Assembly (NCBI GenBank): GCA_019923655.1
Contig: JAHXGL010000001.1
Location: 3,653-67,652 of the forward strand
DNA from: Candidatus Nealsonbacteria bacterium
GTDB taxonomy: Bacteria > Patescibacteriota > Minisyncoccia > Minisyncoccales > RBG-13-42-11
Reading direction: 5' to 3'
Length of the DNA stretch: 64,000 nt
Made by a program: the position numbers and the translations under genes. How positions within the stretch are numbered: position 1 is the first letter of the stretch; each line of letters begins with the position of its first letter. Shown here piece after piece: positions 1,981 through 56,595 of this stretch. Below the pieces are notes generated by a model. It was not told the DNA's origin. It saw nothing but the letters and a program-made list of their open reading frames with translations, and did not search any database.

Positions 1981-2004
1981 TTTTTTCATCTTTGTCTTGC
2001 TTTA

Positions 2005-2080
2005 CTGTCGGGGTTTGACCCCGACAGTGCTGTCGGGGTTTGACCCCGACAGCACCCCGACAGCATACCGACAGCATAAT
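2005..2080. repeat. Two tandem 23-nt palindromes CTGTCGGGGTTTGACCCCGACAG followed by decayed half-copies (CCGACAGCA x2)
   Basis: Read directly at 2005-2027 and 2030-2052; lies downstream of secG. Confidence 0.85.
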
Positions 2081-3741: not shown

Positions 3742-3765
3742 GAGTGTTCAAGTCCACACTCCTAA
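3738..3765. terminator. Hairpin TTAGGAGTGT-N8-ACACTCCTAA overlapping the stop codon of the SBP gene
   Basis: 10-bp stem read directly. The same AGGAGTGTG...CACACTCCT arms occur at 40509-40538. No clear U-tract. Confidence 0.45.
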
Positions 3766-3792
3766 GATTGACAAGGTTTTTGTAAATGATAA

Positions 3793-3827
3793 GGTAGAAG
3801 GTAGAAGGTAGAAGGTAGAAGGTAGAG
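3793..3827. repeat. Heptamer microsatellite (GGTAGAA)x4 plus GGTAGAG
   Basis: Five exact-period 7-nt units read directly, 29 nt upstream of the GH130 gene ATG. Confidence 0.9.
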
Positions 3828-7762: not shown

Positions 7763-7785
7763 CTGTCGGGGTCAAACCCCGACAG
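7763..7785. repeat. Palindrome CTGTCGGGGTCAAACCCCGACAG, the reverse-complement orientation of the 2005-2052 units
   Basis: Read directly, 4 nt after tRNA-Leu. Confidence 0.85.
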
Positions 7786-10545: not shown

Positions 10546-11886
10546 ATGATTTCATTATTTGGGACAAGCGGAATAAGGGGCTCGGCTAAAGAATTTTTAA
10601 CTAATCAATTCTGTTTTGATATTGGCCGGGCTTTCGGCATATTCTTAAAAAACCATAAACAAAAAGGCAAAATAGCCGTAGGAATGGATCCTAGAAGATC
10701 CAGTCCAAGAATAAAGAGATCTTTTTCTTCAGGGCTCTTAAAAGAAGGCTACAAGGTTTCCGACCAAGGAATTGTTCCCGCTCCAGCTATGAATTATATT
10801 TTAATAGCTGATCCGGCTTTTGTTGGCAGTTGTATGATTACCGGAAGCCATATTAGATTAGATTTTAACGGGTTGAAATTTTTTGCCTTCAAAGAAGAAA
10901 TTTTAAAAAAACAGGAAAGAGAAATTGAAAATATTTACAAAAAAATCAAAGAGAGAATTCCGTTCAAACGAAAAAAAATAGAGTTCAAAAAAGAAAATAT
11001 TGCCATTAAATCTTACCGAGAAATGCTCTTAAACATAGCCAAACCGCCCTACCCTAAATGGAAGATAGTTATTGACGCTAGTAATGGCTGTCAGGTAAAA
11101 GCAATACCGACAATTCTTAAAAAATTAGGATTAAAAGTAAAAATTATAAATGGCAACCTGCAATCGGAAAAATTTATTCCCAGAGACACTGAAACCGAAG
11201 AAGCGGTAAAGGAGCTTCAAGAAAAAGTAAAAAAGGAGAAGGCGAATTTTGGAATAGCTTTTGATGGAGATGGAGACAGGGTAGTTTTTGTTGATAAAAA
11301 AGGAAGGTTTATTCCCGGAGATTATACTGGAACCCTAATCGCTAAATACAGCCCCACAGCAACCGTAGTTATCCCGACTAATGTTTCTCAAGTAGTAGAA
11401 ACCATAGGGAAGAAGATTGTTCGAACAAAAGTTGGCTCTCCTTATGTGGTTGAGGCAATGAAAAAATATAAAGCTTTTTTTGGCTTTGAAGCAAACGGTG
11501 GAGGAATTTCGGCTGAAATTATGATGAGTCGAGACGCTGGTTCTGTAACAATAAAAATTTTAAACTTATTAACCCAAAGCAAAAAAACTTTAGAAGAACT
11601 AATAAATACCCTTTCTAAATTTTTTCTTTATAGGGTCAAAATCAACTGTCCTCAAGAACTAAATCCAATTATTCTTAAAAAAGCAAAGAAGAAATTTAAA
11701 GGAATTAAAACCGAGGAAATCGACGGATTAAAAATCTGGCTTGATAAGTACGCTTGGATTCTTTTTCGGCCATCGGCTAACGCTCCGGAATTTCGGGTGT
11801 TTGCCGAAGCAAAAACCAAGGAAGAAGCTGAAAAATTAGGACAAAAAGGAATTAATTTTGTTAAATCATTGGTGAAACCTTGTTAG
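10546..11886 (+). CDS. Phosphohexomutase family protein (GlmM/ManB-like)
   Basis: GIRG N-terminus, TGSH active-site loop, FDGDGDR metal site, GFEANGG sugar loop. Confidence 0.8.
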   Translation: MISLFGTSGIRGSAKEFLTNQFCFDIGRAFGIFLKNHKQKGKIAVGMDPRRSSPRIKRSFSSGLLKEGYKVSDQGIVPAPAMNYILIADPAFVGSCMITGSHIRLDFNGLKFFAFKEEILKKQEREIENIYKKIKERIPFKRKKIEFKKENIAIKSYREMLLNIAKPPYPKWKIVIDASNGCQVKAIPTILKKLGLKVKIINGNLQSEKFIPRDTETEEAVKELQEKVKKEKANFGIAFDGDGDRVVFVDKKGRFIPGDYTGTLIAKYSPTATVVIPTNVSQVVETIGKKIVRTKVGSPYVVEAMKKYKAFFGFEANGGGISAEIMMSRDAGSVTIKILNLLTQSKKTLEELINTLSKFFLYRVKINCPQELNPIILKKAKKKFKGIKTEEIDGLKIWLDKYAWILFRPSANAPEFRVFAEAKTKEEAEKLGQKGINFVKSLVKPC

Positions 11887-11929
11887 AAATAAAACCTTTG
11901 AGAAAAATTTCTAACAAGGTAAAATAATA

Positions 11930-12168: not shown

Positions 12169-13059
12169 ATGTCTTTTTCAGTGGGTATAATTGGCTTGCC
12201 AAATGTTGGCAAATCAACTCTATTTAAGGCTTTGACTAAAAATCCTGTGGGTATTGCTGACTACCCTTTTACCACTATTCATCCCAATGTCGGGCTAGTG
12301 GCGGTTCCTGATAAAAGATTAGAAAAAATTGCTCAAGTTATTAAACCGGAAAAAATAACCCCGACTGTAATTGAGTTTGTTGATATTGCAGGCCTGGTCA
12401 AAGACGCTCATAAAGGCGAGGGTTTGGGAAATCAGTTCTTGGCCCAAATCAGAAATTGCGACGCTCTGGTTGAAGTTGTCAAAGCATTTGATAATGCGAG
12501 CAATGCAAGTATTGAAAAAGATATTGAAATAATTAAAACCGAACTGGAAAAGAAAGATTTAGAATCAAAAGAAAAAGAAAATCTTTTAAGCAAAAAGCCG
12601 ATTCTCTATGTCTTTAACATTAATGAACAAAGAACAAAGAACAATGAACAAGAATTAAAACAGATGTTTTCTTTTCCCTGTTCCTTGTTTATTGATCTTA
12701 AGCTTGAAGTAGAAATATCAGAGATGTCAGAGTCCGAAATAAAAGAATTGGGCATCGCTTCCAAGCTTGACCAAATGATTTTAAGTTGCTATGATATTCT
12801 TAGTTTGATTACTTTTTACACGATAACTCGCGGGAAAGAAACCAGGGCATGGACGTTAAAAAAAGGGTTAAGAGTGCCGGTAGCTGGTGGAATTGTCCAT
12901 TCTGATTTTGAAACCAAATTTATTAGGGCCGAAGTAATCAGCGCGCAGAAATTAATCGCAGCCGGTTCCTGGAAACAAGCGCGGGAATTAGGGCAAATCT
13001 TAACAACTGGAAAAGAGTATGTTGTAGAAGACGGCGATGTTGTAGAATTTAAAATATGA
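12169..13059 (+). CDS. ychF: Ribosome-binding ATPase YchF (Obg-like GTPase family), short form
   Basis: GIIGLPNVGKSTLFKALT P-loop; C-terminal TGS-like HSDFETKFIRAEV...VEDGDVVEFK. Confidence 0.88.
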   Translation: MSFSVGIIGLPNVGKSTLFKALTKNPVGIADYPFTTIHPNVGLVAVPDKRLEKIAQVIKPEKITPTVIEFVDIAGLVKDAHKGEGLGNQFLAQIRNCDALVEVVKAFDNASNASIEKDIEIIKTELEKKDLESKEKENLLSKKPILYVFNINEQRTKNNEQELKQMFSFPCSLFIDLKLEVEISEMSESEIKELGIASKLDQMILSCYDILSLITFYTITRGKETRAWTLKKGLRVPVAGGIVHSDFETKFIRAEVISAQKLIAAGSWKQARELGQILTTGKEYVVEDGDVVEFKI

Positions 13060-17478: not shown

Positions 17479-20400
17479 TTAGGAGTTAAGCGGGGTAAAG
17501 CCGGTCCCTGCGGGAATAAGCTTTCCAATAATCACATTTTCTTTAAGCCCGTGGAGTTTATCTTCTTTTCCTCTCAATGAAGCGTTGATTAAAACCCGAG
17601 AAGTTTCCTGAAAAGAAGCAGCGGAAAGAAAGCTCTCAGTGGTTAAAGCGACCTTAGAGACGCCAAGCAAAAGAACAATACCCTTGGCTGGCTTTTTTTT
17701 CTCTTTTTTGAGCTGAATGTTCTCTCTTAAAAATTCCGCTTTTTCTACAATTTCCCCAAGTTTAAAAATAGAATCTTCGGAAACAACAATCTTTAAACGA
17801 GAGAACATTTGGCGGCAGATTGTTTCTATGTGTTTGTCATGAAGTGAAACCCCTTGGGAAACATAAATTTTTTGGACTTCTTTGACAATATATTTTTGAG
17901 TTTGTTCAAGCCCAACCAACTTAAATAATTCTTTTAAGTCTAAATTACCCTCGCAGAGTTGCTGGCCTATTTCTATTTCTTGGTTAGGTTCTACTAAAAT
18001 TGCTATATTTTCCGGAATTTTATATTCTAAGATTGAAGACAAACTTTTAGTAGTCCTCCAATTCTTTTTTGTTTCTGACAGCAATTTTTTGCGTTTTTGT
18101 TTTATCTTTATTACCCTTTCAGGAGTTATTTCTATTATTTTTCCTCGGACTTGGGAAATCTTAGCTTTTCCTTTCGGTATTCTAGCTTCAAAAATCTCTT
18201 GAACTCGAGGCAGGCCAAGGGTAATATCACTTTCTCCGGCAACGCCCCCGGAATGGAAAGTTCTCATTGTTAGTTGGGTTCCTGGTTCGCCAATTGACTG
18301 AGCAGCCACAATTCCGGCTGCCTGTCCTATTTCTATTATTTTGTTTTTTCCCATATCCCAACCATAACATTTTTGACAAAGGCCTTTTACTACTTCACAA
18401 GTAAGCGGACTGGCGATTTTTATCTCTTTGATATTAAGACTGACTATTTTATCAGCTTTTTCCCAATCAATAATTTCTCCTTTTTTGCAAACCCCTTTTA
18501 TGTTTTCAAGGCTTATTCTTCCTGAAATTTTATGAATAAAATTCTGGCCAATTTCATCGGCATCTTTTCTTTGGACGATAATTCCTTGTTTGTTTCCGCA
18601 ATCTTTGGTAGTAATGATTATTTCATGGGCAACATCTATCAGTCTTCGGGTGAGATATCCAGCCGCTGCAGTTCGAAGCGCCGTGTCAGCCAGTCCTTTT
18701 CTTGTTCCATGAGTGGAAATAAAATATTCTAAAACATCAAAACCCTGCTTAAAAGAGTTTTTTATGGGCATTTCAATGATTTGACCGGTCGGATTAATAA
18801 CCAAACCTTTCATACCTGCCATTTGAACCGACGGACCCCAGGATCCTTTTGCTCCTGATTCAATGATTTGATAAATTGGCCCATTTTTTGGCAAGGTTTT
18901 CGGGATCAATTCTTCAATTTTGGACTTTGCTTTATTCCAAATTTTAATTACTTTAATAGTTTTTTCTTCTCTTGAGAGAAATCCTTTTTTTAAGTGTCCT
19001 TCAATTTCTTCTACTTCCTTTTCTGCTTCTTTTATAATTTTGGTTTTTTCTAAGGGAATAATTAAATCATCCATTCCCCAGGATATTCCGGACAGGCTGG
19101 CGTATTCAAATCCTAATAGTTTTATTTTATTTAAGAGATCTTGCGTTTTTTCTAAAGGGTATTTTTCAATAGTTTCCCTGCTTATTCTTTCTAAGTCTTT
19201 TATTTTTATTTCTGAATTCTGGAATGGGTAGTTTGAAGGCAGGGCTTGGTTGAAAATAATCCGACCAACCGAAGTTTCAATTAAATCCGTGCGTTTTAGC
19301 GGTTTAACATTTTGTCGGGACAGCCGCGTTTTAATTTTGGTTTTTAAGTCAATTTCGCCAAACTCATAAGCTAACATCGCTTCTTCGGGACTGGTAAAAA
19401 ATTTCTCTGGTTTTAGTGCTTCATCTTCAATTTTAGTTAAATAATAACAACCAAGAGCAATGTCTTGATGGAAAGTAATAACCGGAATACCTGTTGCCGG
19501 TTTTAGAAAATTAGCCGTGGAAAGCATAATTTCTCTAGCTTCTTTTTGGGCAATGGTTGAAAGGGGCAGGTGAACCGCCATTTGATCTCCGTCAAAATCA
19601 GCATTAAAAGCCTTACAGACCATGGGATGAATTTTAATGGCTTCTCCTTCAATTAAAACCGGATAGAAAGCTTGAATACCCAGCCGATGGAGGGTTGGCG
19701 CCCGATTTAATAAAACAACTTTATCTTTTGTTATTTCTTCTAAAATTGCCCAGACCTCATCTATGCCTTCTTCAATTAATTTTGAGGCGCTTCGAACATT
19801 ATAAGCTAGTTCTTTTTCCAAAATCTTTTTAATTATAAATGGCTTAAAAAGTTCCAGAGCCATTTTTTTAGGGAGACCGACTTGGTTAAGTTTTAATTCC
19901 GGACCAACGACAATTACCGACCGACCGGAATAATCAACTCGTTTGCCTAAAAGGTTCTGCCTGAATCGCCCCTGTTTCCCTTTAAGGATGTCAGCTAAAG
20001 ATTTTAGCATTCGCTTTCCGCCGGTCGTGGCAGTGGTCATTGTTCCTTTTCGGGCTTCGTTGTCAATGAGAGCGTCTACTGCTTCCTGGAGCATTCTTTT
20101 TTCATTCCTTAGAATAACTTCAGGCGCTTCTATTTCTAAAAGATATTTTAATCGATTGTTTCGATTAATTACTCGGCGATAAAGGTCGTTTAAATCCGAA
20201 GAAGCATACCGGCCGCCGTCCAGTTGCACCATTGGTCTTAAATCCGGAGGCGATACTGGTAAAAGTGTTAAAAATACCCATTCTGGTCTAATCTCAGCTT
20301 TTAACATTCCCTGGAAAAGTTTTATCCTTTCTAATATTTTTCTTTTAGCCAGGACTTGCCCCGTTAGATAATTTTTATCTAACGGGGCTTGCTCTGTTAG

Positions 20401-21228
20401 ATAATTTTTATCTAACAGGGATTGCCCCGTATAATCTTCGCGGGAGCTACGCGGGGATTGGGTTTTTTCTTTGTCATTTTTTAGTTTAGCTATTTCTTTT
20501 TCCAGGTCAATTTTGGTGCAAAGTTTTCTTAATGTTTCAGCTCCGGTTCCCACTTCAAAAACAGCCCCGTATTTCAGGGAAAGATCATGATATTCATTTT
20601 CAGAAAGAATTTTTAAAGGTTTTAGACTTAAAACTTCTTCTCGGGCTCTATTTTTAGCCTTTTTTAGCTTCTCTGACTCGGTTTTTGCTTTTGCTTTTTT
20701 ATTTTTGAGATTCTTTTGTTTTGACTCGTCTTGGTCTAAGGAACGCAGCGCCTTGTTTTTTCTTTTGTATTCTTTTTCAATCTCTTCCAGGATTTTTTTC
20801 TTAATGTCTAAGTTGACATCAGTAATAACATAGGCGGAGAAATAAATTATTTTTTCAAGCTGAGACACAGGAATATCCAGGATTGCGCCTATTGTTGAGG
20901 GAACGCCTCTTAAAAACCAAATATGGGAGCAGGCCATAGCTAGTTTAATGTGGCCCATTCTTTCGCGCCGCGAAAGAGCTTTTGTTACTTCTACGCCGCA
21001 CCGGTCACAAATTACTCCTTTGTAACGAATTCTTTTATATTTGCCGCAGTAGCACTCGTAATCTTTTGTTGGTCCGAAAATTTTCTCGCAAAACAGCCCA
21101 TCTTTTTCCGGCCTTTGTGTTCTATAATTAATAGTTTCAGGTTTTAAGACCTCTCCGTGAGACCATCTTGATATATCTTCCGGCGAAGCCAGTTTTATTC
21201 TTATTGATTTAATATCAGCAACTCGCAT
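17479..21228 (-). CDS. rpoC: DNA-directed RNA polymerase subunit beta-prime, with a K/E-rich lineage-specific insertion
   Basis: CxCGKY...CDRCGVEV zinc motif, NADFDGDQM catalytic loop, 1249 aa. Confidence 0.98.
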   Translation of the reverse strand: MRVADIKSIRIKLASPEDISRWSHGEVLKPETINYRTQRPEKDGLFCEKIFGPTKDYECYCGKYKRIRYKGVICDRCGVEVTKALSRRERMGHIKLAMACSHIWFLRGVPSTIGAILDIPVSQLEKIIYFSAYVITDVNLDIKKKILEEIEKEYKRKNKALRSLDQDESKQKNLKNKKAKAKTESEKLKKAKNRAREEVLSLKPLKILSENEYHDLSLKYGAVFEVGTGAETLRKLCTKIDLEKEIAKLKNDKEKTQSPRSSREDYTGQSLLDKNYLTEQAPLDKNYLTGQVLAKRKILERIKLFQGMLKAEIRPEWVFLTLLPVSPPDLRPMVQLDGGRYASSDLNDLYRRVINRNNRLKYLLEIEAPEVILRNEKRMLQEAVDALIDNEARKGTMTTATTGGKRMLKSLADILKGKQGRFRQNLLGKRVDYSGRSVIVVGPELKLNQVGLPKKMALELFKPFIIKKILEKELAYNVRSASKLIEEGIDEVWAILEEITKDKVVLLNRAPTLHRLGIQAFYPVLIEGEAIKIHPMVCKAFNADFDGDQMAVHLPLSTIAQKEAREIMLSTANFLKPATGIPVITFHQDIALGCYYLTKIEDEALKPEKFFTSPEEAMLAYEFGEIDLKTKIKTRLSRQNVKPLKRTDLIETSVGRIIFNQALPSNYPFQNSEIKIKDLERISRETIEKYPLEKTQDLLNKIKLLGFEYASLSGISWGMDDLIIPLEKTKIIKEAEKEVEEIEGHLKKGFLSREEKTIKVIKIWNKAKSKIEELIPKTLPKNGPIYQIIESGAKGSWGPSVQMAGMKGLVINPTGQIIEMPIKNSFKQGFDVLEYFISTHGTRKGLADTALRTAAAGYLTRRLIDVAHEIIITTKDCGNKQGIIVQRKDADEIGQNFIHKISGRISLENIKGVCKKGEIIDWEKADKIVSLNIKEIKIASPLTCEVVKGLCQKCYGWDMGKNKIIEIGQAAGIVAAQSIGEPGTQLTMRTFHSGGVAGESDITLGLPRVQEIFEARIPKGKAKISQVRGKIIEITPERVIKIKQKRKKLLSETKKNWRTTKSLSSILEYKIPENIAILVEPNQEIEIGQQLCEGNLDLKELFKLVGLEQTQKYIVKEVQKIYVSQGVSLHDKHIETICRQMFSRLKIVVSEDSIFKLGEIVEKAEFLRENIQLKKEKKKPAKGIVLLLGVSKVALTTESFLSAASFQETSRVLINASLRGKEDKLHGLKENVIIGKLIPAGTGFTPLNS
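20355..20420. repeat. Two tandem 33-nt palindromic units inside rpoC (stem CCCCGTTAGATAA/TTATCTAACGGGG)
   Basis: Read directly; translated in frame as LDKNYLTEQAP/LDKNYLTGQVL. Confidence 0.9.
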
Positions 21229-21249: not shown

Positions 21250-21335
21250 ATAGAAAGTAGAGGGTAGAAAGTAGAAGGTAGAGGGTAAAAAACTTTTATC
21301 TACATTCTACATTCTACATTCTACATTCTATATTC
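21250..21335. repeat. Inverted heptamer arrays: (GTAGARR)x5, an A-rich spacer, then (CTACATT)x4. The core at 21275-21330 is 54/56 identical to 50949-51004.
   Basis: Read directly in the rpoB-rpoC intergenic region. Confidence 0.9.
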
Positions 21336-24971: not shown

Positions 24972-25637
24972 TTAATCCTTCTTCTTTTCCCAGAATTTTC
25001 TAATTTTCTTAAAGTGATCAATTCGTTCTGTAATTTTGCCAATCTCTTTTGGGTAAAATTCCAAAAGCGTATCGCACAAGTCCAACATCCACTTTTTACG
25101 ACTATTTTTAGGGACCAGATTTACTACATTTGCGTTGGCAATTTGAATTTGTCCCCAACCGAGCGCGCCTATTGTTAAACAATTCCAGTTAAAAAATTCT
25201 ATAGGTGCAAAAACAATATGTTTAATAACGACTTTTGTGCCTTCAATTTGATAATCAATTTTCAAAAGTGAAAAATAATTTACATCTTCCTCATAGAACC
25301 TTGATAGTCGCTCAACGGAAGTCAAATTTGGCATGTTAAACTTCGTATCTAATCTATGTGTTTTTACATCAACAACATAGTAAAAGCCGTCTTTGTCAGT
25401 AAAGGCGAGGTCGGCCATTGCGCGACGCGCAAATGACGATGAATACTCGCTTACTAAATCGCCAAGTATTTCCTTAAAGTTTTCTACGATAATATTTTCA
25501 ATAGCGTCGCCAACCGCGCGAGGACTATTTTGTGTTCTCGCGGAAAGAAAATCTTTTTGGTTATTCAAAAAAGTTTTAATTTTTTCTGCGATTTCTTTAT
25601 ATTTGTTTGTATAAAAAATTAAACTTTTCTTTTTCAT
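24972..25637 (-). CDS. Putative type II restriction endonuclease (R1)
   Basis: 221 aa; overlaps the upstream methyltransferase gene by 4 nt; PD-(D/E)XK-like ADLAF...YYVVDVKTH. No family recognised. Confidence 0.6.
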   Translation of the reverse strand: MKKKSLIFYTNKYKEIAEKIKTFLNNQKDFLSARTQNSPRAVGDAIENIIVENFKEILGDLVSEYSSSFARRAMADLAFTDKDGFYYVVDVKTHRLDTKFNMPNLTSVERLSRFYEEDVNYFSLLKIDYQIEGTKVVIKHIVFAPIEFFNWNCLTIGALGWGQIQIANANVVNLVPKNSRKKWMLDLCDTLLEFYPKEIGKITERIDHFKKIRKFWEKKKD

Positions 25638-26647
25638 AATAGTTTATTATTAAATAAATCTGCTGTTGGCTCGACTTTATTTTTCTTTCCGTTTCCGTTC
25701 ATTTGCTCGTTAAGTGTATTGCGTTCCCAAAATATACCGTCCGAGTATCCTTGTATGTTTTTTTCTTTTTCTGTTATATCTAATCGCTTTTCAGCAAAAC
25801 AACAATAATACTCATCAACTTCTATGCCAACATACCGACGACCAAGTTTTTTTGCGACAACCGAAGTCGTGCCCGAACCAAGAAACGGGTCAAAAACAAT
25901 ATCATTTGGTTTTGAACTGGCCAAAATAACTTTAGCAACCAATTTTTCTGGTTTTTGTGTTGGGTGGTCAGTATTTTCCGGCATTGACCAAAACGGAATT
26001 GTAATATCTGTCCAAACATTTGATGGGTGAGTAATTCTATATTTCCCAGCGTCGCTATCTTCCCAATCTTTCGGCTTTCCGTTTTCGTCTTTGTATGGCG
26101 CTATAACTTTACGCTTCATTTTTACAGCGTCAACATTGAAATGATATTTATCGGAAAGTGTGCAAAACCAAATATCCTCGGAGCAATTTTTCCAATTACT
26201 TTTTGCGCCGCGTCCTTTTTCTCGTTCAAAGGTTATGCGATTTTGTATCTTAAAGTATTTTTTCGCTACATTAAAAATTGCCCCTGATGATTTCCAATCA
26301 CCACAAATATAAACAGAGGCGTGCGGTTTCAGTATCCGAATAAGTTTAGCAACCCAAGAATCAAGCCATTGCTCATATTTTTCTGACTCCATTTCTTTAA
26401 ACGAGGTAAGGTTGAAAGTTTTATTAAGGTTATAGGGTGGGTCAACAAAAACTAAATCAACAAAACTATCCGGTAAATAATTTAATGCCTCAAAAATATC
26501 CTGATGTATAGTTTTATTTTCGACTTCTTCAAGAGAAATAGGTTTATTTATTTTTATCAGCCGTTTTTTAAAATTGGAAATATCACTATCGCTCAATGTG
26601 ATAGTTCTATTTCTTGGTGCTCGTTGTTTTAGTGTTTTATCTTTCAT
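25634..26647 (-). CDS. Beta-class N6-adenine/N4-cytosine DNA methyltransferase (M1)
   Basis: DPPYN (motif IV) precedes FDPFLGSGTT (motif I). The ATG at 26647 lies 4 nt after the HTH gene stop; the track start at 26671 is a TTG. Confidence 0.88.
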   Translation of the reverse strand: MKDKTLKQRAPRNRTITLSDSDISNFKKRLIKINKPISLEEVENKTIHQDIFEALNYLPDSFVDLVFVDPPYNLNKTFNLTSFKEMESEKYEQWLDSWVAKLIRILKPHASVYICGDWKSSGAIFNVAKKYFKIQNRITFEREKGRGAKSNWKNCSEDIWFCTLSDKYHFNVDAVKMKRKVIAPYKDENGKPKDWEDSDAGKYRITHPSNVWTDITIPFWSMPENTDHPTQKPEKLVAKVILASSKPNDIVFDPFLGSGTTSVVAKKLGRRYVGIEVDEYYCCFAEKRLDITEKEKNIQGYSDGIFWERNTLNEQMNGNGKKNKVEPTADLFNNKLL

Positions 26648-26651
26648 TGGT

Positions 26652-26786
26652 TTATTTGATTGAATCTTCAATTGGAATATTTAACGCTTTCGCAATTTTT
26701 TTCAGCGTTTCTACCGTCGGATTTTGTTGTTTGCCCGCTTCTATGTTGATTATCGTATTATTGGACACATCGGCAAGCCGAGCCAG
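26652..26786 (-). CDS. XRE/C-protein-like HTH remnant (HTH-1) with no canonical start; its 5' end lies in the 49-bp repeat core
   Basis: Manual minus-strand translation gives LARLADVSNNTIINIEAGKQQNPTVETLKKIAKALNIPIEDSIK*. No in-frame ATG/GTG/TTG between that point and the upstream stop. Confidence 0.45.
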   Translation of the reverse strand: MARLADVSNNTIINIEAGKQQNPTVETLKKIAKALNIPIEDSIK

Positions 26787-26862
26787 TTTTCCCGTACAAA
26801 GCGGCGCGAAGCGCCGCCGAAACGCTGGACAAAAAAGAGGAAAGTTTGATACTGGAGCGGGT
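26775..26862. repeat. Direct repeat copy 1 (88 bp): a 49-bp core identical to 29909-29957, a 29-nt diverged spacer, and a 10-nt tRNA-Gly 3'-end fragment (TGGAGCGGGT)
   Basis: Aligned by eye with 29909-29996. The core contains the hairpin GCGGCGC-GAA-GCGCCGC. Confidence 0.9.
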
Positions 26863-26993
26863 TATTGGAAAAAGTTAGAACTTTTTACCAGCAAAATCCG
26901 GACGCGGAAATTTGATTTGATTTGCCCTCGCTCTTGCCCCGTAGTGAACGCGAAGCGTTCTACTACTGGGGTTTCCGCCGCCGCAATTTTTCA

Positions 26994-27010
26994 TGCCAGC
27001 GAAGCTGGCA
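26994..27010 (-). terminator. Hairpin TGCCAGC-GAA-GCTGGCA just downstream of the 172-aa ORF; on the minus strand it is followed by UGAAAAAUU
   Basis: 7-bp GC-rich stem read directly; a second, imperfect hairpin lies at 26937-26971. Confidence 0.5.
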
Positions 27011-27026
27011 CACTGCCTAAAAATTT

Positions 27027-27545
27027 TTATTCATTTTCTAATGGAAATATTTTACAATTTTTATCCGGACACACTAAAATAATTTTTTCGAAAAAATATT
27101 GTTTTAACTCTGCTCCCAAAATAAAATTTCTAAATTCATCTTTAAAATATTCCTCGCCGATAAACGATGGACTAGGGACACAAAACAACAAACAAATTAT
27201 TCCTTTCGCCGCTTTACCGAAGTTGTGATTTTCCAATGGTTCTTTAATTATGGATGTCCAGTATTCTTCGGTATTTCTCCAAAACTTTTTTTTACCATTT
27301 TCTCTTCTCCCCAAACAAACAAGCTCAAAAACACCACCTCTTTTATCAATAGTTCTACGCGGACCTTCTAATTTTCCATCAGCAAAAGCCACTTGAAATT
27401 TTTTATCTTTCCAAAAAACATCGCTGGGGTCATTTTCAACCGGATTCGGTTCAATGTCCTGCTCTTTGAAATCTAAACCTTCATTTTGTAAATATCTTTT
27501 TACAACATTTATTTCTTCTGTTTGTTTTTGTGAAAAAGAGTTCAT
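27027..27545 (-). CDS. Hypothetical protein (172 aa) in the R-M island
   Basis: Uninterrupted ORF, co-oriented with and 59 nt downstream of M2. No motif recognised. Confidence 0.55.
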   Translation of the reverse strand: MNSFSQKQTEEINVVKRYLQNEGLDFKEQDIEPNPVENDPSDVFWKDKKFQVAFADGKLEGPRRTIDKRGGVFELVCLGRRENGKKKFWRNTEEYWTSIIKEPLENHNFGKAAKGIICLLFCVPSPSFIGEEYFKDEFRNFILGAELKQYFFEKIILVCPDKNCKIFPLENE

Positions 27546-27604
27546 TTTATTTCTTCTTTTGGATTTAATTTTTTATTATCTTGTTTCATATTACTTAGTA
27601 ATAA

Positions 27605-28786
27605 TTAAAAAGCTAACTTTTGTTGATTTGCTGGTGCTAAATTACGAATATCAATTTTTTCAAATTTAATTTCAGACATAGATTCAGATTTTCCATTTTT
27701 GTCTATTAAAAATAAGTATTCCTTATTTTTTCCGTTAGTATTGTTAATCCATTCGTTGGTTGTCCGAGTTATTGTCGCCATTACATTTTTTCTGTAATCC
27801 ATTTCAAAAATAGAGATTTTTTTCTTCAAATTTTTTAGTATGTCTTTTATTGCTTGAAAGGTAGCCCTGCCATTATTGTTATAAGATAAAACCACATATT
27901 TTGCCGGAGTATTCTTTATCAATTTTTCTATCGCTTCAATAACAATATATTGTCCCTCATCATTTTTTCTAAACTCCTCAAAAATAGAACCGGAAATTGT
28001 ATCGCCAACATCCTCTCGCCTATTCGCTACGCCAACTAATTTTGGTTTATCGTTCAAGCAAATAGTTTTCCAAATATGATAATAAGAGGCGTATCTCACG
28101 CGAGAGGGCGGCATTAACTCATTTGAAGAACCATAAGGAGGGTCGTAATACGCTAAATCCACTTCAATATCATTTACTAAATCAAAAATATCTTTTTGAT
28201 AAACTTGATGTTGTTTGTCATCAATAATTAAACGAGGCACTTCCATTTTCATCGTGTTGTAGGCGCGGGGAGCCCATTTTTTCAAATACGAAACTTGATG
28301 ACCAACAGAACTATCGACCTTATCCATTGCTATAATTAAACTGGTAAGTAAGACCGACTTTTCAATTTTATCTTTTGTGATTTTATCAATCTCTTCTCTT
28401 ATTGCGTCCAGTTTTTTGGTATTATGTAATTGCCAAATCCTTTTTCTGCCGTCTTTTTGAATGGCAGAGCCGCCGTTCGGTTCGCCGCCGTAATTTTCCG
28501 AGAACCAGCCATATTTTCCGGGTAAATTATTTAGGTGATTTATAAGTGGTAAATAATAACTCGCGGATCTTTTATTCAATAAATAACACTCTCCAAATAT
28601 TTTTGACCAATCAGAAATATCATTAGCGTAGACGGCATAGCCAGCTTGTTTTAATGCTTGAGAAACCCTTGTCGTGCCAGAAAAACCATCTAAAACCGTT
28701 TTTATATTTAACGGCTTTATCAACTCCAACAAAACAGGGAGTATTTCTCTTTTAGAACCAGTATATTTTATGCCCTGTGTTTCCAT
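27605..28786 (-). CDS. Alpha-class (D12/Dam-like) N6-adenine DNA methyltransferase (M2) with a C-terminal extension
   Basis: KYTGSK, DGFSGTT (motif I), then YYDPPYGSS (motif IV). Confidence 0.88.
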   Translation of the reverse strand: METQGIKYTGSKREILPVLLELIKPLNIKTVLDGFSGTTRVSQALKQAGYAVYANDISDWSKIFGECYLLNKRSASYYLPLINHLNNLPGKYGWFSENYGGEPNGGSAIQKDGRKRIWQLHNTKKLDAIREEIDKITKDKIEKSVLLTSLIIAMDKVDSSVGHQVSYLKKWAPRAYNTMKMEVPRLIIDDKQHQVYQKDIFDLVNDIEVDLAYYDPPYGSSNELMPPSRVRYASYYHIWKTICLNDKPKLVGVANRREDVGDTISGSIFEEFRKNDEGQYIVIEAIEKLIKNTPAKYVVLSYNNNGRATFQAIKDILKNLKKKISIFEMDYRKNVMATITRTTNEWINNTNGKNKEYLFLIDKNGKSESMSEIKFEKIDIRNLAPANQQKLAF

Positions 28787-28858
28787 AAGCTAAAATTAAT
28801 AGATTATTCTCTAATATCATTTTAGCATTTTTTATTGTTTTGGTCTATTTAACGAGGG

Positions 28859-29665
28859 CTAAAAAAAATACTTTAATATTTTTTCGTGTGTATCTTTACG
28901 AGAAACAAGAATTTTAGCGATTAAAGCAATGAGCGGCTCATTGATTTTATAACCGCCAGTGAGTAGCTCTTTGAAAAATGGCTCAGCATTTTCCGTGTGC
29001 GTCCACATTCCGCGTTGTAAAGCATTGGCTTTTGCGTCGCCGTATCTAACCTCAAAAATATAATTATTTTTGTTATCAAAAAATTTATAAATCGGAAATG
29101 TCTTTTTTCTACCCATTTTTCGCGGTGGTAAAAATTTTATTTTCTTAACGGAAGAATATGCTCTTTGTAAGTCAAAAACTATCACTTTAAATCTCATTTC
29201 CCTTTCATTATAAATCAATGGTAAAACATTAACGGCGGTAAAATCTTTAAAGCATTTATTATTTAAAATCTGTTTTATTTTTGTGAGATCGTTTGTCGCT
29301 CGTTTTCCAACTTCTGTTTGTAAAAGAGAAAACATTGACCCGTCTTTATTTGTTGAAAGTTGAAGCGGGCCAAATCCGTAAGTTTTTATACTAATAGGAA
29401 TTTCTTTTTTGGTGCTGGTTTCAGTAATTCTTATATCTTCTTCAAATTCTTTCGCCCGAAATTTTTCTTTGCCTGTATGTTTTGCTGAATAACCGCCAAC
29501 ATATTGATTTATGTATTCCGTAAGAGCAATTTCCGCAAGATCGCCATGCGTTTTATTCCCGATAATTCTCATCGAAAAAACATTACCCAAGACATTAAAA
29601 ATCATCGGGTCTTTACCGCTGAAACTTTTAACAAATTTTGTTAGGAATTTATCAAATGATGACAT
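28859..29665 (-). CDS. Putative type II restriction endonuclease (R2)
   Basis: 268 aa between HTH-2 and M2; candidate acidic/Lys motif GDLAEI...EEDIRI...ISIKT. No family recognised. Confidence 0.55.
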   Translation of the reverse strand: MSSFDKFLTKFVKSFSGKDPMIFNVLGNVFSMRIIGNKTHGDLAEIALTEYINQYVGGYSAKHTGKEKFRAKEFEEDIRITETSTKKEIPISIKTYGFGPLQLSTNKDGSMFSLLQTEVGKRATNDLTKIKQILNNKCFKDFTAVNVLPLIYNEREMRFKVIVFDLQRAYSSVKKIKFLPPRKMGRKKTFPIYKFFDNKNNYIFEVRYGDAKANALQRGMWTHTENAEPFFKELLTGGYKINEPLIALIAKILVSRKDTHEKILKYFF

Positions 29666-34618: not shown

Positions 34619-35383
34619 ATGAATATTATTTGGCACGGACAATCTTGTTTTCAAATTACTATCCAGAAAGGGAAAAACAATTTGGTCAATATTGTTATTG
34701 ATCCTTTTGATGAAACAATTGGCTTGCGAGTTCCCAAGCTGGAGGCCGATATTTTATTAGTTTCTCATAGCCACGCAGACCACAACAATAGAAAAGCAGT
34801 GGTCTCCCCGGCAGGATCAGGGCAAGTTCCTTTTTTAGTTGACGGCCCGGGTGAATATGAAGTAAAAGGAGTTTTCATTCAAGGGATTGATTCATATCAT
34901 GATTCTTTACTTGGCAGAGAAAGGGGATTAAACACCATTTATATTATTGAAGCTGAAGAAATGAAGATTTGCCACCTTGGAGATTTAGGACAAAAAGAAT
35001 TGACCGATGAACAAATTGAGAAGATTAACGAGGTTGATATTTTAATGATTCCGATTGGCGGTCTCTTTACAATTTCAGCCAAAGAGGCAATGAAAATAAT
35101 CTCTCAAATTGAGCCCAGGATCGTTGTCCCGATGCATTATTGCCTTCCAAAGCTAAAAATAGAGGGATTAGAAGATTTAGATAAATTTTTTAAAGCAATC
35201 GGAATAAAAAAAATAGAACCTTTGTCAAAGCTTTCTATTAAGAAAAAAGATATTTCGTCGGAAGAAGCGAGGATAATAGTCTTCCAAATCCGAAAGGATT
35301 TGGAAACGAAGTCTTCCAAACTTCAAAGAAATTTGGAAACGAAGTCTTCCAAATCCGAAAAAATTTGGAAACGAAGTTTTTAG
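34619..35383 (+). CDS. MBL-fold metal-dependent hydrolase (UPF0173-like) with a repeat-encoded C-terminal tail
   Basis: VSHSHADHNN metal motif. The last ~31 codons (IRKDLETKSSKLQRNLETKSSKSEKIWKRSF) come from palindromic units. Confidence 0.75.
   Translation: MNIIWHGQSCFQITIQKGKNNLVNIVIDPFDETIGLRVPKLEADILLVSHSHADHNNRKAVVSPAGSGQVPFLVDGPGEYEVKGVFIQGIDSYHDSLLGRERGLNTIYIIEAEEMKICHLGDLGQKELTDEQIEKINEVDILMIPIGGLFTISAKEAMKIISQIEPRIVVPMHYCLPKLKIEGLEDLDKFFKAIGIKKIEPLSKLSIKKKDISSEEARIIVFQIRKDLETKSSKLQRNLETKSSKSEKIWKRSF
35280..35376. repeat. Three tandem 32-33-nt palindromic units (TCTTCCAAAyC-loop-rATTTGGAAACGAAG)
   Basis: Units at 35280-35311, 35312-35344 and 35345-35376, read directly. Confidence 0.9.
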
Positions 35384-46015: not shown

Positions 46016-46064
46016 TATTTTAACCGGGCAGATAATGACTGGGGTCTGTGCCCAATCATTCATT

Positions 46065-46863: not shown

Positions 46864-48966
46864 ATGGTTTTCTCCTACGGTTGGCTTCAATCTTTTTTTC
46901 AAAAAAAACTACCCAAACCAGAAAAACTGGCAGAAGTTTTGACGATGAGTTTTGCCGAAATAGAAAAGGTAAAAAAAGAAAGAGAAGATTTTGTTTTGGA
47001 TATAGATGTCAAACCCAGCCGGGCGTCGGATTGTCTTTCCCACCTGGGCATTGTTCGCGAAATCGCTGCTATTACAAAATTACAATACAAAGAGCCTCTT
47101 TCTAAATTTAAGGCAGTTAAAGAGCTGAAATCAAAAAATTTTGTGTCTGTTGACATCCGATGTCAACAAGCTTGTCCAAGATATACAATTAAAATAATTG
47201 TTGATGTAAAAGTTTGCCCATCTCCAAAATGGCTGAAACACAGATTAAAGGTTTGCGGATTAAAACCGATAAATAACATTGTTGATATCGCAAACTATGC
47301 CATGCTTGAAACAGGTCAACCGCTTCACGCTTTTGATTTTGACAAAATTAAAGGTAGAAAAATAATTGTTAGAAAAGCGAAAAAAGGAGAAGAAATTACT
47401 ACTTTTGATGAAAAGAGTTATTGCTTGGACCAAGATATTTTAATAATTGCCGATGCCAAAAAACCAATAGCTATTGCCGGAATAAAAGGAGGGAAAGAAA
47501 CAGGCATTGATAAAAATACAAAGACCGTTGTTTTGGAGTCAGCCAATTTTAATCAAGGGATTATTCGAAAAGGTTCCAGAAAATTAAACTTAAAAACCGA
47601 TGCTGCGACAAGATTTGAACAGGGAATTGACCCTAATTTAACGGAATTTGCAATCAATAGAGCTTGCTATTTAATCCAGAAAATTTCCAAAGGCAAAATA
47701 GCTCATGGATTGGCAGATATTTATCCCAAAAAAGCCCTGCCAAAAAGAATTAGATTGGACTTGGATTATGTTGAAAGATTATTAGGAATAAAAATACCTG
47801 AAAGAGAAATCAAAAGTATTTTAGAAAAACTAAGATTCAAGCTTAAAACTCAAAACTTAAAACTATTAGATGTAGAGATTCCTACGTTCAGATTAGATAT
47901 TTCTTTACAGGAAGATTTGATTGAAGAGATCGCCAGAATATATGGTTATGAGAAAATTAAGCCGGTTTTCCCGATAGTTTCGCTTATCCCGTTCAAAAGG
48001 AATCTGGAAATTTTTTGGGAAGGCAGGGCAAAAGATATTTTAGAACAAGCAAGATTTTCTGAAGTTTATAATTATTCTTTCATTAGTAAAGGGGATGCCA
48101 AAAATTTTGGCGGTAAGATAAATAAATTAATTGAAATAGAAAATCCATCAAGCATTGAACATAGATATTTGAGACCGAGCTTAATTCCGAATTTGTTAAA
48201 AAATATTCAAAAAAATCAGAAACTCTATTTTGAAACTTTCAAAACTCATAGAGTTTTGAAGAGTGAAACTTTCAAAACTCTACGAATTTTGAAGAGTAAA
48301 GAAATTAAAATTTTTGAATTAGGAAAAATTTTTCAAGCGCCTAAATTAGAAAAAAGAACTCTTTCGGGGGTAATGACAGGAGATGCGTTTTATCAAGTAA
48401 AGGGAGTAATAGATTTGCTTTTAAGTAAATTAGGCATTAGTAATATTCAGTATTGCGAGCATAGAACCGTAGAAAGGGGGTTAAAAAGCTGTTGGTGGCA
48501 GCCACCAAAATGCGCGGAGATTAAAATTAATGGAGAGCAAATAGGGTTTTTGGGCGAGGTTTCTTTCCGAGTTTTAAGCGACCTGAAAATAGAGCTGAAA
48601 ACAATAGTTTTTGATATTGATTTTGAAAAATTAGTTAGGTTTTGCTCTGAAGAAAAGACCTATCAGCCAATTTCTCGTTATCCGTCAGCAATAAGGGACA
48701 TAGCGGTTTTGGTTCCTAAAAGAATTAAAGTGAATGAGGTTTTGAATAAGATTAATGCGGTCAAAGGACAGAGAGGCCTGATTAAGGATGTGGATTTGTT
48801 TGATGTTTATGAAGGCAGGAACATTCCCAATAACAAGAAAAATTTTGCTTTCCATATTATTTATCAAGCGGAAAATAAAACTTTATCATCAAAAGAAATA
48901 GACGACGCACATCAAAAAATTGTTAAAGCATTGGAGGAACGCAAGGGATGGGAAGTCCGAAAGTAA
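46864..48966 (+). CDS. pheT: Phenylalanine--tRNA ligase beta subunit
   Basis: 700 aa with B3/4, B5 and anticodon-binding-like regions; follows pheS. Confidence 0.92.
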   Translation: MVFSYGWLQSFFQKKLPKPEKLAEVLTMSFAEIEKVKKEREDFVLDIDVKPSRASDCLSHLGIVREIAAITKLQYKEPLSKFKAVKELKSKNFVSVDIRCQQACPRYTIKIIVDVKVCPSPKWLKHRLKVCGLKPINNIVDIANYAMLETGQPLHAFDFDKIKGRKIIVRKAKKGEEITTFDEKSYCLDQDILIIADAKKPIAIAGIKGGKETGIDKNTKTVVLESANFNQGIIRKGSRKLNLKTDAATRFEQGIDPNLTEFAINRACYLIQKISKGKIAHGLADIYPKKALPKRIRLDLDYVERLLGIKIPEREIKSILEKLRFKLKTQNLKLLDVEIPTFRLDISLQEDLIEEIARIYGYEKIKPVFPIVSLIPFKRNLEIFWEGRAKDILEQARFSEVYNYSFISKGDAKNFGGKINKLIEIENPSSIEHRYLRPSLIPNLLKNIQKNQKLYFETFKTHRVLKSETFKTLRILKSKEIKIFELGKIFQAPKLEKRTLSGVMTGDAFYQVKGVIDLLLSKLGISNIQYCEHRTVERGLKSCWWQPPKCAEIKINGEQIGFLGEVSFRVLSDLKIELKTIVFDIDFEKLVRFCSEEKTYQPISRYPSAIRDIAVLVPKRIKVNEVLNKINAVKGQRGLIKDVDLFDVYEGRNIPNNKKNFAFHIIYQAENKTLSSKEIDDAHQKIVKALEERKGWEVRK
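48232..48297. repeat. Two tandem 33-nt palindromic units inside pheT (GAAACTTTCAAAACTC-N3-GAGTTTTGAAGAGT)
   Basis: Units at 48232-48264 and 48265-48297, read directly; translated as ETFKTHRVLKS/ETFKTLRILKS. Confidence 0.9.
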
Positions 48967-56568: not shown

Positions 56569-56595
56569 CATGTTAGACACCGAGTGTCTAACATG
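56565..56595 (+). promoter_or_regulatory. GTGACA followed by the perfect 27-nt palindrome CATGTTAGACAC-CGA-GTGTCTAACATG, upstream of tmk
   Basis: Read directly; a TATAAT hexamer also occurs at 56618-56623, 6 nt before the tmk ATG. Confidence 0.5.

What the first reader, a model, noticed from the sequence alone, without database searches (positions are those of the whole stretch)
20355..20420. Two tandem 33-nt perfect palindromes translated inside rpoC
Unit 1 has a 13-bp perfect stem (CCCCGTTAGATAA-TTT-TTATCTAACGGGG). Unit 2 is a near copy (CTGTTAGATAA-TTT-TTATCTAACAG). Read on the coding strand they give LDKNYLTEQAP/LDKNYLTGQVL within a K/E-rich segment of beta-prime that looks lineage-specific. 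A perfect 13-bp hairpin inside an essential gene is unlikely to come from protein-level selection alone.
Basis: seen in the sequence. Interest (0 to 1): 0.6.

Follow-up and report, generated by a model that had tools for sequence, protein, structure and literature searches.

The report
Palindromic repeat element translated inside rpoC
A 33-base hairpin-forming repeat, copied three times head to tail, sits in frame in a surface loop of the RNA polymerase beta-prime gene of an uncultured Patescibacterium; it is most likely tolerated selfish DNA, as already described in Rickettsia and other bacteria, not a new polymerase function.

Summary
rpoC (17479-21228, minus strand) holds a perfect 14-bp stem with a 3-nt loop (20358-20388). 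A near copy with an 11-bp stem lies 33 nt away, followed by a degenerate third unit. Together these 102 nt (20353-20456) encode 34 residues. All 120 nearest beta-prime homologues lack them, and so does a syntenic relative at the DNA level. In an AlphaFold2 model of the N-terminal 450 residues they form a low-confidence loop between two helices, in the non-conserved spacer between beta-prime regions A and B.

The same 29-mer plus a CARG tail occurs in frame, giving the same peptide (PLDKNYLTGQ), in a Wzy_C membrane-protein gene of another Patescibacterium. It also occurs between genes in a Gram-negative MAG.

Only 2 of the unit's 6 reading modes are free of stop codons. Two of the three substitutions between units 1 and 2 are pairing partners and keep the base pair.

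pheT in this window carries a separate 2 x 33-nt hairpin insert. Related GTTAGA hairpins sit at two gene ends.

Best reading: an in-frame REP/RPE-like palindromic repeat, which is a known kind of element. It is new for this phylum and for rpoC. What moves it and any function remain unshown.

The parts
17479..21228 (-). rpoC (RNA polymerase beta-prime), 1249 aa, the host gene
   Evidence: ORF list and translation. PDB beta-prime chains match at E about 1e-42. The nearest homologues are Patescibacteria RpoC.
20353..20456 (-). In-frame insert of 102 nt (34 aa, P259-V292), made of three head-to-tail units of a 33-nt hairpin element
   Evidence: The window has 80 residues between IDL and RPEW, against 45-48 in 120 homologues. 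DNA alignment to the syntenic relative L016 shows a clean empty site. Unit alignment. The E. coli alignment breaks between about N206 and K215. AlphaFold2 gives a low-pLDDT loop between helices 242-256 and 285-310.
20355..20387 (-). Unit 1: CCCCGTTAGATAA-AAA-TTATCTAACGGGG plus tail CAAG, encoding (A)PLDKNYLTGQ(V). The perfect 14-bp stem spans 20358-20388.
20388..20420 (-). Unit 2: CCCTGTTAGATAA-AAA-TTATCTAACAGAG plus CAAG, encoding LLDKNYLTEQA. The perfect 11-bp stem spans 20394-20418.
   Evidence: It differs from unit 1 at three positions. Two of them (20362/20384 becoming 20395/20417) are pairing partners, changed from C-G to T-A.
20421..20456 (-). Unit A: a degenerate 36-nt copy, CCCCGCGTAGCTCCCGCGAAGATTATACGGGGCAAT, encoding (S)PRSSREDYTGQS. 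It keeps the CCCCG...CGGGG ends and the CAAT tail.
   Evidence: Alignment A2 and mRNA fold. On the plus strand (antisense to rpoC) it scores as a terminator-like hairpin followed by a T-run.
11877..11920 (+). Related hairpin ACCTTGTTAGAAAT...ATTTCTAACAAGGT at the 3' end of the phosphomannomutase-like gene. The TAG inside GTTAGA is that gene's stop codon.
   Evidence: GTTAGA..TCTAAC hairpins occur 4 times against 0.07 expected.
56569..56595 (+). Related hairpin CATGTTAGACAC-cga-GTGTCTAACATG, immediately after the stop codon of ORF 55738-56568
48226..48297 (+). A second case in the same window: pheT carries an in-frame 2 x 33-nt hairpin array of unrelated sequence (TTCAAAACTC-ATA-GAGTTTTGAA), encoding YFETFKTHRVLKSETFKTLRIL
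   Evidence: Tandem Repeats Finder and sequence. The alignment to Staphylococcus PheT 2rhq_B has a clean 22-residue gap here. RNA fold z-score -4.6. Only 2 of 6 reading modes are open.

Best explanation
The segment is an intragenic copy of a small REP-like palindromic repeat. The unit is 33 nt: a 29-nt hairpin plus a 4-nt CAAG tail. It entered rpoC at a permissive loop and was amplified by tandem duplication to three units. The insert survives for three reasons: the unit is exactly 11 codons long, it lies in one of only two stop-free reading modes, and the resulting 34 residues form a flexible loop at the tip of a helical hairpin in the non-conserved spacer between beta-prime regions A and B. 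Shown here: the insertion, its three-unit make-up, its absence from relatives, the same element in other genes and genomes, the constraint on reading frame, and the retention of pairing after divergence. Inferred: that it is mobile or selfish, that it is translated, and that it is neutral for the polymerase. Unknown: what moves it. A RAYT-like HUH tyrosine transposase, as proposed for REPs, is a candidate, but none was seen in the window.
For: 1. The insertion is unique: 120 homologues have 45-48 residues where the window has 80, and the syntenic relative L016 has an empty site.
2. The insert consists entirely of three units of the element.
3. The exact 29-mer plus a CAGG tail lies in frame in a Wzy_C gene of another Patescibacterium. 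It gives the same peptide, PLDKNYLTGQ, in a loop that the closest homologue (65% identity) and 38 others lack. Two separately deposited assemblies, one at ENA and one at JGI, both carry it.
4. The exact 29-mer plus a related tail is intergenic in L002, which also holds a second CCCCGTTAGA hairpin.
5. The window holds 4 GTTAGA..TCTAAC hairpins against 0.07 expected. Two lie at gene ends, and one supplies the stop codon TAG, as described for REPs (PMC3733652).
6. Four of the 6 reading modes contain stop codons, and the coding copies use the open ones.
7. Two of the three substitutions between units are compensatory pairing partners; one of them is synonymous and the other changes Pro to Leu.
8. 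pheT carries an independent 2 x 33-nt hairpin insert.
9. The AlphaFold2 model places the insert in a low-confidence loop between two helices.
10. Intragenic REP dimers or groups encoding 20-30 aa, including in tRNA synthetase genes, are documented.
Against: - Only 64 kb of the genome is available, so the copy number is unknown. The window holds only three loci of this family.
- No transposase, RAYT or other mobilising gene was found among the window ORFs examined.
- The GTAG or CGTC tags that define the two described REP superfamilies are absent.
- The matches in L002 and L005 rest on a hairpin whose information content is only about 16 independent bases plus the tail. My rough estimate of a chance match is a few percent or less each, which is not negligible.
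- No presence/absence polymorphism was observed, and there is no expression or proteomic evidence of translation.
- A strongly stable mRNA structure (-49.6 kcal/mol, z -8.2) could also have been selected for a function.
Confidence: 0.7

Rival explanations
1. The tandem hairpins are a selected cis-acting nucleic-acid structure inside rpoC. Examples would be an RNase III or other processing site, a ribosome or RNA polymerase pause site that helps beta-prime fold, or a block to antisense transcription. On this view the peptide is a by-product.
For: The mRNA is predicted to be very stable (-49.6 kcal/mol, z -8.2, no shuffle as stable). The two units differ by a compensatory change. Unit A scores as a terminator-like hairpin with a T-run on the antisense strand.
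Against: The structure is absent from all 120 nearest homologues and from the syntenic relative, so it is not a conserved rpoC feature. The same element sits in an unrelated membrane-protein gene and in intergenic DNA. No Rfam family matches. Terminator-like hits in this region are at chance level (6 found, 4.9 expected). Units 1 and 2 have no U-run on the mRNA strand.
Confidence: 0.12
2. The segment is an adaptive, lineage-specific beta-prime insertion made by ordinary tandem duplication of 11 codons and selected for a protein function. On this view the palindromy is incidental.
For: The spacer between beta-prime regions A and B is known to accept lineage-specific insertions: beta-prime i1 in Actinobacteria and beta-prime i2 in Deinococcus-Thermus (PMC5511352). 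The insert is in frame and open.
Against: A perfect 14-bp stem requires every codon position, including synonymous ones, to obey pairing. The identical 29-mer occurs in an unrelated protein and in non-coding DNA. The insert is predicted to be unstructured (pLDDT about 50). A search of 1.84 billion representative proteins with the peptide found no real relatives. pheT has a hairpin insert of different sequence but the same architecture.
Confidence: 0.08
3. The segment is an assembly or sequencing artefact, for example a chimeric or fold-back read.
For: The window is probably from a metagenome-assembled genome. Its exact RpoC and PheT are not on record elsewhere, so there is no independent assembly of this locus.
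Against: The insert is exactly 102 nt, in frame and free of stop codons, although 4 of the 6 reading modes contain stops. The units have diverged from one another. The same element appears in two separately deposited assemblies, ENA and JGI, of another contig and in other records. Several analogous arrays exist in the window.
Confidence: 0.03
4. The array encodes guide-like small RNAs (a stem-loop TIGR array, which is common in CPR bacteria), or it is a tandem operator for a dimeric DNA-binding protein.
For: Stem-loop TIGR arrays occur in Patescibacteria, can be embedded in coding sequence, and are processed at a CUU at the base of the stem (preprint 10.64898/2026.09.09.750476). CTTG lies at the base of each stem on the plus strand. 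The 33-bp spacing is about three helical turns.
Against: The units are fully paired with 3-nt loops, which leaves no room for two spacers or for box C/D motifs. The array has only 2-3 near-identical units. No Nop-domain Tas gene or regulator was seen among the window ORFs examined. Family members in the window have half-site spacings from 3 to 16 nt, which fits a hairpin rather than an operator.
Confidence: 0.03

Closest known systems
Intragenic REPs (repetitive extragenic palindromes found inside ORFs; Di Nocera et al. 2013, PMC3733652)
   Same: A 20-40-bp stem-loop repeat. Family members mostly lie at the 3' ends of genes and sometimes supply the TAG stop codon. Some copies are entirely inside known genes, in frame, often as dimers or groups encoding 20-30 aa, including in tRNA synthetase and nucleic-acid enzyme genes.
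   Different: There is no GTAG or CGTC tag; the unpaired tail is CTTG or CYTG. The units are head to tail with an exact 33-nt period, rather than the head-to-head dimers that predominate among REPs. The phylum is Patescibacteria, which I did not see among the phyla named in the parts of that paper I read. The host gene is rpoC. No RAYT transposase has been identified.
Rickettsia palindromic elements (RPE-1 and relatives; 'selfish DNA in protein-coding genes', Ogata et al. 2000, recalled from memory and cited)
   Same: A palindromic repeat inserted in frame into housekeeping genes, translated as an extra surface segment without inactivating the protein.
   Different: By recollection, RPE-1 is about 100-150 bp and restricted to Rickettsia. 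Here the unit is 33 nt, tandemly amplified, and unrelated in sequence.
[quoted passage not shown] 2010, PMC2996958)
   Same: Tandem intragenic repeats whose DNA has dyad symmetry and which appear to spread horizontally.
   Different: PARCELs are a 25-residue amphipathic motif in long arrays within surface or membrane ORFs of unknown function. They are not 11-residue units inserted into a conserved enzyme.
Lineage-specific insertions of beta-prime (beta-prime i1 in Actinobacteria, beta-prime i2 in Deinococcus-Thermus)
   Same: They lie in the same non-conserved spacer between conserved beta-prime regions.
   Different: Those insertions are at about position 140, are 90-280 residues long, fold into defined structures, and are conserved across a phylum. 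This insert is about 60 residues further on (E. coli numbering about 206-215), is 34 residues long, is predicted to be disordered, and is confined to one lineage.

Membership tests
REP elements (GTAG/CGTC superfamilies as defined in PMC3733652) | A 20-40-bp palindromic unit folding into a stem-loop (stem 5-13 bp, loop 2-20) | tested here: met
   The hairpin is 29-31 nt, with a stem of 11-14 bp and a loop of 3 nt. The 14-bp stem is slightly above the quoted range.
REP elements (GTAG/CGTC superfamilies as defined in PMC3733652) | An unpaired GTAG or CGTC tag at one end | tested here: not met
   The unpaired tail is CAAG or CAGG (CTTG or CCTG on the other strand) in the rpoC, L005 and L002 copies.
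REP elements (GTAG/CGTC superfamilies as defined in PMC3733652) | A dispersed multi-copy family, mostly next to the 3' ends of ORFs | tested here: inconclusive
   Three loci with the GTTAGA..TCTAAC core lie in 64 kb (4 hairpins against 0.07 expected). Two are at gene ends. The rest of the genome is not available.
REP elements (GTAG/CGTC superfamilies as defined in PMC3733652) | Association with a RAYT (HUH tyrosine transposase) gene | not testable with these tools
   No transposase was seen among the window ORFs. The genome outside the window could not be searched.
REP elements (GTAG/CGTC superfamilies as defined in PMC3733652) | Intragenic copies are in frame, often grouped, and add 20-30 aa to known proteins | tested here: met
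   34 aa in RpoC, 22 aa in PheT, and about 12 aa in the L005 Wzy_C protein.
Rickettsia palindromic elements (RPE) | An element of about 100-150 bp belonging to RPE sequence families of Rickettsia | tested here: not met
   The unit is 33 nt and the organism is a Patescibacterium. Sequence comparison with RPE consensus sequences was not run.
PARCEL | A 25-residue amphipathic motif in long tandem arrays within ORFs of unknown function | tested here: not met
   The units are 11 residues, there are three copies, and they lie inside rpoC.
Stem-loop TIGR array (tigRNA) | [quoted passage not shown] | tested here: not met
   The stems are continuous and the loop is 3 nt, so there is no room for spacers. 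Definition taken.
Stem-loop TIGR array (tigRNA) | An adjacent Tas gene with a Nop domain | tested here: not met
   None was found among the window ORFs examined. Only the window was examined.
Intrinsic transcription terminator | A G+C-rich hairpin followed by a U-run on the transcribed strand | tested here: not met
   Units 1 and 2 have no T-run on the mRNA strand. Hits in the region are at chance level.
Known RNA families (Rfam 15) | A match at the family's gathering score | tested here: not met
   Only tRNAs reach the gathering score in the window. Within 20200-20600 all matches score far below gathering.

The most novel reading that the evidence does not exclude
The 33-nt hairpin units are an active, horizontally moving element class in CPR bacteria. 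On this reading the element is exchanged with other bacteria: the identical 29-mer plus tail sits in the exbD-tonB spacer of a Gram-negative MAG, possibly a host. It is moved by an unrecognised ssDNA-hairpin enzyme, and it repeatedly remodels surface loops of essential proteins (rpoC, pheT), perhaps with RNA-level effects on their expression. The shared 32-33-nt unit size of three unrelated hairpin families in this window would then reflect a size rule imposed by that machinery.
Probability: 0.1. Interest if true: 0.65.

Novelty: new member of a known kind. Interest (0 to 1): 0.45.

Why it matters
- It extends the 'selfish palindromes inside protein-coding genes' phenomenon, known from Rickettsia RPEs and intragenic REPs, to the reduced genomes of Patescibacteria and to the catalytic subunit of RNA polymerase.
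- It shows one way lineage-specific insertions in conserved enzymes can begin, namely as nucleic-acid-level repeats filtered only by reading frame and loop tolerance.
- It warns annotators and phylogeneticists that short unalignable segments in marker genes such as rpoC and pheT of CPR genomes may be repeat-derived.
- The 29-mer shared with a Gram-negative MAG could, if real, be a tracer of DNA exchange between an episymbiont and other bacteria.

Tried and rejected
- **Clamp-helix location.** I first placed the insert at the tip of the sigma-binding clamp helices. Counting E. coli residues against the alignment showed it maps to about N206-K215, upstream of the 260-309 coiled coil. I rejected that placement.
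- **Peptide search by word index.** A synthetic 43-aa concatenation of the repeat peptides found nothing. Two earlier attempts failed on parameter limits.
- **Peptide search of 1.84 billion representative proteins.** The 38-aa insert gave 6 weak hits (E 1e-6 to 1e-3). All were unrelated repeat proteins, for example phage-fibre-like LDKNYITG and NKNYRTGTVP repeats. The search was uninformative.
- **Nucleotide searches elsewhere.** The viral contig scan gave no hits. The plasmid blastn gave only a chance 29-nt hit.
- **Exact look-up of the window's RpoC and PheT.** Neither is on record, so there is no independent assembly and no source sample.
- **Direct repeats AAAGAAAAA flanking the insert.** I considered them as a target-site duplication. 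I rejected this because the sequence is low-complexity lysine codons, and removing everything between them would make the loop shorter than in any homologue.
- **TAG recoding in the relative L016.** I suspected this from its split genes. I rejected it because most of the breaks are frameshifts, which points to assembly indel errors.
- **Other inserts in the Wzy_C loop.** The inserts in homologues P0128 and P0130 come from heptamer repeats, not hairpins.
- **TIGR arrays, terminators and Rfam families.** All were tested and not met.
Full report
**1. What is there**

The window is from a low-GC (about 36%) Patescibacteria (CPR) genome. The nearest RpoC sequences are from Parcubacteria/Paceibacteria-type MAGs at no more than 69% identity (BLASTP over the 450-aa query).

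rpoC is the 1249-aa ORF at 17479-21228 on the minus strand, downstream of rpoB.

- At 20358-20388 there is a perfect 14-bp inverted repeat with a 3-nt loop, GCCCCGTTAGATAA-TTT-TTATCTAACGGGGC.
- Exactly 33 nt further on there is a near copy with a perfect 11-bp stem (20394-20418).
- Tandem Repeats Finder reports period 33 and 2.5 copies.
- The 21-nt core occurs nowhere else in the window, and 0.01 matches are expected by chance.

**2. The whole lineage-specific segment is made of the repeat**

On the coding strand the region reads SPRSSREDYTGQS / LLDKNYLTEQA / PLDKNYLTGQV. Alignment of the DNA units shows three head-to-tail copies:

- two well-preserved 33-nt units, CCCCGTTAGATAAAAATTATCTAACGGGG plus CAAG;
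- one degenerate 36-nt unit upstream, which keeps the CCCCG...CGGGG ends and the CAAT tail.

Between the conserved IDL and RPEW motifs, all 120 nearest homologues have 45-48 residues and the window has 80.

A syntenic relative (L016, GCA_030153525.1) has the same gene order: RNase J, trpS, pmm, rpsF, ssb, recA, ftsK, rpoC, rpoB. It aligns at the DNA level on both sides of a clean gap.

The insert is therefore 102 nt, or 34 aa (P259-V292; 20353-20456).

**3. Where it sits in beta-prime**

The alignment to E. coli beta-prime stops at ...LREELNETNS and resumes at TKRKKLTKRIKLL. By my count of the E. coli sequence this is residues about 206-215. This lies upstream of the sigma-binding clamp helices (260-309), so my first guess about the location was wrong.

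The site is in the non-conserved spacer between conserved regions. That spacer also hosts the actinobacterial beta-prime i1 and the Deinococcus-Thermus beta-prime i2 insertions at about position 140 (PMC5511352).

An AlphaFold2 model of residues 1-450, built with 73 homologues, has mean pLDDT 76 and puts helices at 242-256 and 285-310. Most of the insert lies between them, where pLDDT is about 50. I infer a flexible loop at the tip of a helical hairpin.

**4. The same element elsewhere**

Exact searches for the 21-nt core found 4 genome loci and 6 metagenome loci. Most share only the core, with different stem extensions. These look like ordinary terminator hairpins after tRNAs or genes, and I do not count them as relatives. 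Two carry the full 29-mer.

- **L005** is a contig with 35% GC.
  - The 29-mer lies inside a 460-aa Wzy_C (O-antigen-ligase family) gene, in the same orientation and frame, and reads ...FTPLDKNYLTGQALRT....
  - The closest homologue (65% identity) and 38 others lack this segment, which falls in a variable loop between transmembrane helices.
  - Two separately deposited assemblies, one at ENA and one at JGI, both carry it.
- **L002** is a Gram-negative MAG contig.
  - The 29-mer plus CGGGCAAGT lies between exbD and tonB.
  - A second hairpin, CCCCGTTAGAAA-CAT-TTTCCAATGGGG, follows the upstream gene.
- **L003** (Minisyncoccales) holds a 12-bp-stem version inside a 98-aa ORF, read in the other orientation as KELDNFYLTP.

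Given perfect pairing, the 29-mer carries only about 16 independent bases. A chance match in terabase collections is therefore not impossible; my rough estimate is a few percent or less per hit. Two hits, a shared tail, and the same frame in L005 make common origin the better reading.

**5. Signs that the constraint acts on the nucleic acid**

- Of the six ways to read tandem copies of the unit, four contain TAG or TAA. rpoC and L005 use one of the two open modes and L003 uses the other.
- Units 1 and 2 differ at three positions.
  - 20362/20384 (C-G) became 20395/20417 (T-A). These are pairing partners, so the pair is kept. One change is synonymous (Thr) and the other turns Pro into Leu.
  - The third change gives Gly to Glu.
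  - By my rough estimate, the chance that two of three random substitutions are complementary partners is about 0.04.
- The mRNA segment folds at -49.6 kcal/mol, with a z-score of -8.2.
- The representative-protein search with the peptide returned only unrelated repeat proteins.

**6. Context in this genome**

Perfect hairpins of at least 9 bp occur 20 times in the window, against 1.7 in shuffles. They fall into families.

- The GTTAGA..TCTAAC core occurs 4 times against 0.07 expected.
  - Besides rpoC it forms hairpins at 11877-11920, where its TAG is the stop codon of the upstream gene.
  - It also forms one at 56569-56595, right after a stop codon.
- pheT (46864-48966) carries a 2 x 33-nt array of a different hairpin. 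This corresponds to a clean 22-residue gap against Staphylococcus PheT.
- Other families (F2, F4, F5; see 'noticed in passing') lie between genes or at gene ends.
- The syntenic relative L016 has none of these families.

**7. Interpretation**

The picture matches what Di Nocera et al. described for REPs:

- small stem-loop repeats, mostly next to the 3' ends of ORFs;
- some providing the TAG stop codon;
- a minority entirely inside known genes, in frame, more than half as dimers or groups adding 20-30 aa, including in tRNA synthetase genes.

It also matches the RPEs of Rickettsia.

I therefore read the rpoC segment as an intragenic REP/RPE-like element that was amplified to three units by tandem duplication. 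It is retained because of its 11-codon period, an open frame and a permissive loop.

It is not a member of the GTAG or CGTC superfamilies, because its tail is CTTG or CYTG. Its units are head to tail, not head to head. No RAYT or other transposase was seen in the window, so the mobilisation mechanism is not shown.

**8. Rivals**

- **A selected regulatory RNA or DNA structure** is not excluded. It is disfavoured because relatives lack the segment and because the element also occurs in unrelated contexts.
- **A purely protein-level adaptive insertion** does not explain the perfect pairing or the copies elsewhere.
- **An assembly artefact** is unlikely given the exact in-frame, stop-free and diverged units and the separately assembled copies of the element.
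- **Stem-loop TIGR arrays**, which are frequent in CPR, were considered. They were rejected because the hairpins have 3-nt loops and no room for spacers or box C/D motifs.
- **No Rfam family matches**. Units 1 and 2 are not terminators on the mRNA strand.

**9. Verdict**

This is a real and statistically clear feature, explained as a known kind of element (an in-frame palindromic repeat) in a new setting: Patescibacteria, rpoC and pheT. Interest is moderate.

Open points:

- the genome-wide copy number;
- the mobilising enzyme;
- why three unrelated hairpin families share a 32-33-nt unit;
- whether the identical copy in a Gram-negative MAG reflects horizontal transfer.

Noticed in passing
window 48226-48297 (pheT, 46864-48966 +): A second essential gene carries an in-frame tandem 2 x 33-nt hairpin insert (TTCAAAACTC-ATA-GAGTTTTGAA), encoding YFETFKTHRVLKSETFKTLRIL. 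It corresponds to a clean 22-residue gap against Staphylococcus PheT.
   Followed up: yes
window 5812-5846, 35278-35377, 39780-39863: A dispersed 32-33-nt hairpin family (AGTC-TTCCAAAYC-loop-GRTTTGGAA-ACGA) with 1, 3 and 2-plus units. It always lies 9-26 nt upstream of a start codon on the same strand (5865, 35397, and probably 39872). It overlaps the C-terminal codons of the upstream ORFs, extending the MBL-fold hydrolase ORF. It may be regulatory.
   Followed up: partly
window 2004-2076 and 7763-7785: Hairpin family CTGTCGGGG-loop-CCCCGACAG. One site is a 25-nt-period tandem array upstream of the SBP_bac_5 gene. The other is a single copy directly after tRNA-Leu(cag).
   Followed up: partly
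window 3738-3765 and 40509-40538: Hairpin family (T)AGGAGTGT..ACACTCCT(A). The first copy overlaps the TAG stop of ORF 2083-3741. The second lies just upstream of tRNA-Leu(tag).
   Followed up: no
window 3791-3826, 12625-12651, 21251-21335 (rpoB-rpoC spacer), 50974-51004; also L005:2670-2700, L011, L012: Heptanucleotide tandem repeats (AAGGTAG, TAGAAGG, TCTACAT, CTACATT, GAACAAA, each x4-5) in intergenic spacers. Heptamer-derived in-frame inserts occur in the variable loop of Patescibacteria Wzy_C proteins (for example NLKLEIRNSE from GAAATTA repeats).
   Followed up: partly
window 35773-39678 (+): gyrA is 1301 aa and contains an intein with a LAGLIDADG homing-endonuclease domain (Pfam Intein_splicing, LAGLIDADG_3, Hint_2), inserted in the N-terminal part of the gene before most of the DNA_topoisoIV domain match (residues 548-952).
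   Followed up: partly
window 24972-29665 (-): A cluster of restriction-modification genes lies between rpoB and a tRNA cluster. It includes a weak HincII-like endonuclease match (below Pfam's cut-off), an N6_N4 methylase, a D12-class adenine methylase and two unassigned ORFs.
   Followed up: no
window 46067-46112 (start of pheS ORF 46035-46856) and 40344-40433: The 9-nt tandem repeat GAATAAAGA x5 gives NKENKENKENKE at the annotated N-terminus of PheS, which may lie upstream of the true start. The 9-nt repeats ACCAGTAGA and CAGCACCAC give a (EPV)n / PPxP tail on a weak (below Pfam's cut-off) T4SS-pilin-like membrane protein.
   Followed up: no
L016 / L017 (GCA_030153525.1, JASEKR010000457.1), whole 21.8-kb locus: In the closest syntenic relative, ligA, rpoB, rpoC, ftsK, recA, pmm and trpS are each split into 2-3 ORFs, mostly by frameshifts. 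These are probably indel errors of a long-read assembly rather than stop-codon recoding. This may explain some of the short 'partial' RpoC entries in the protein database.
   Followed up: partly
L002:1528-1650: In the Gram-negative MAG, the shared 29-mer hairpin is flanked by 15-nt direct repeats, GAGTAGCGAAACTTG and GAGTAGCAAGACTTG. The second repeat is followed by another, larger hairpin. This suggests a compound repeat with an ACTTG tag preceding different stems.
   Followed up: no
window 20432-20469 (+ strand, antisense to rpoC): The degenerate third unit, together with the following GGTTTTTTCT, scores as an intrinsic-terminator-like site on the antisense strand. Hits in the region are at chance level, so the significance is unclear.
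   Followed up: no
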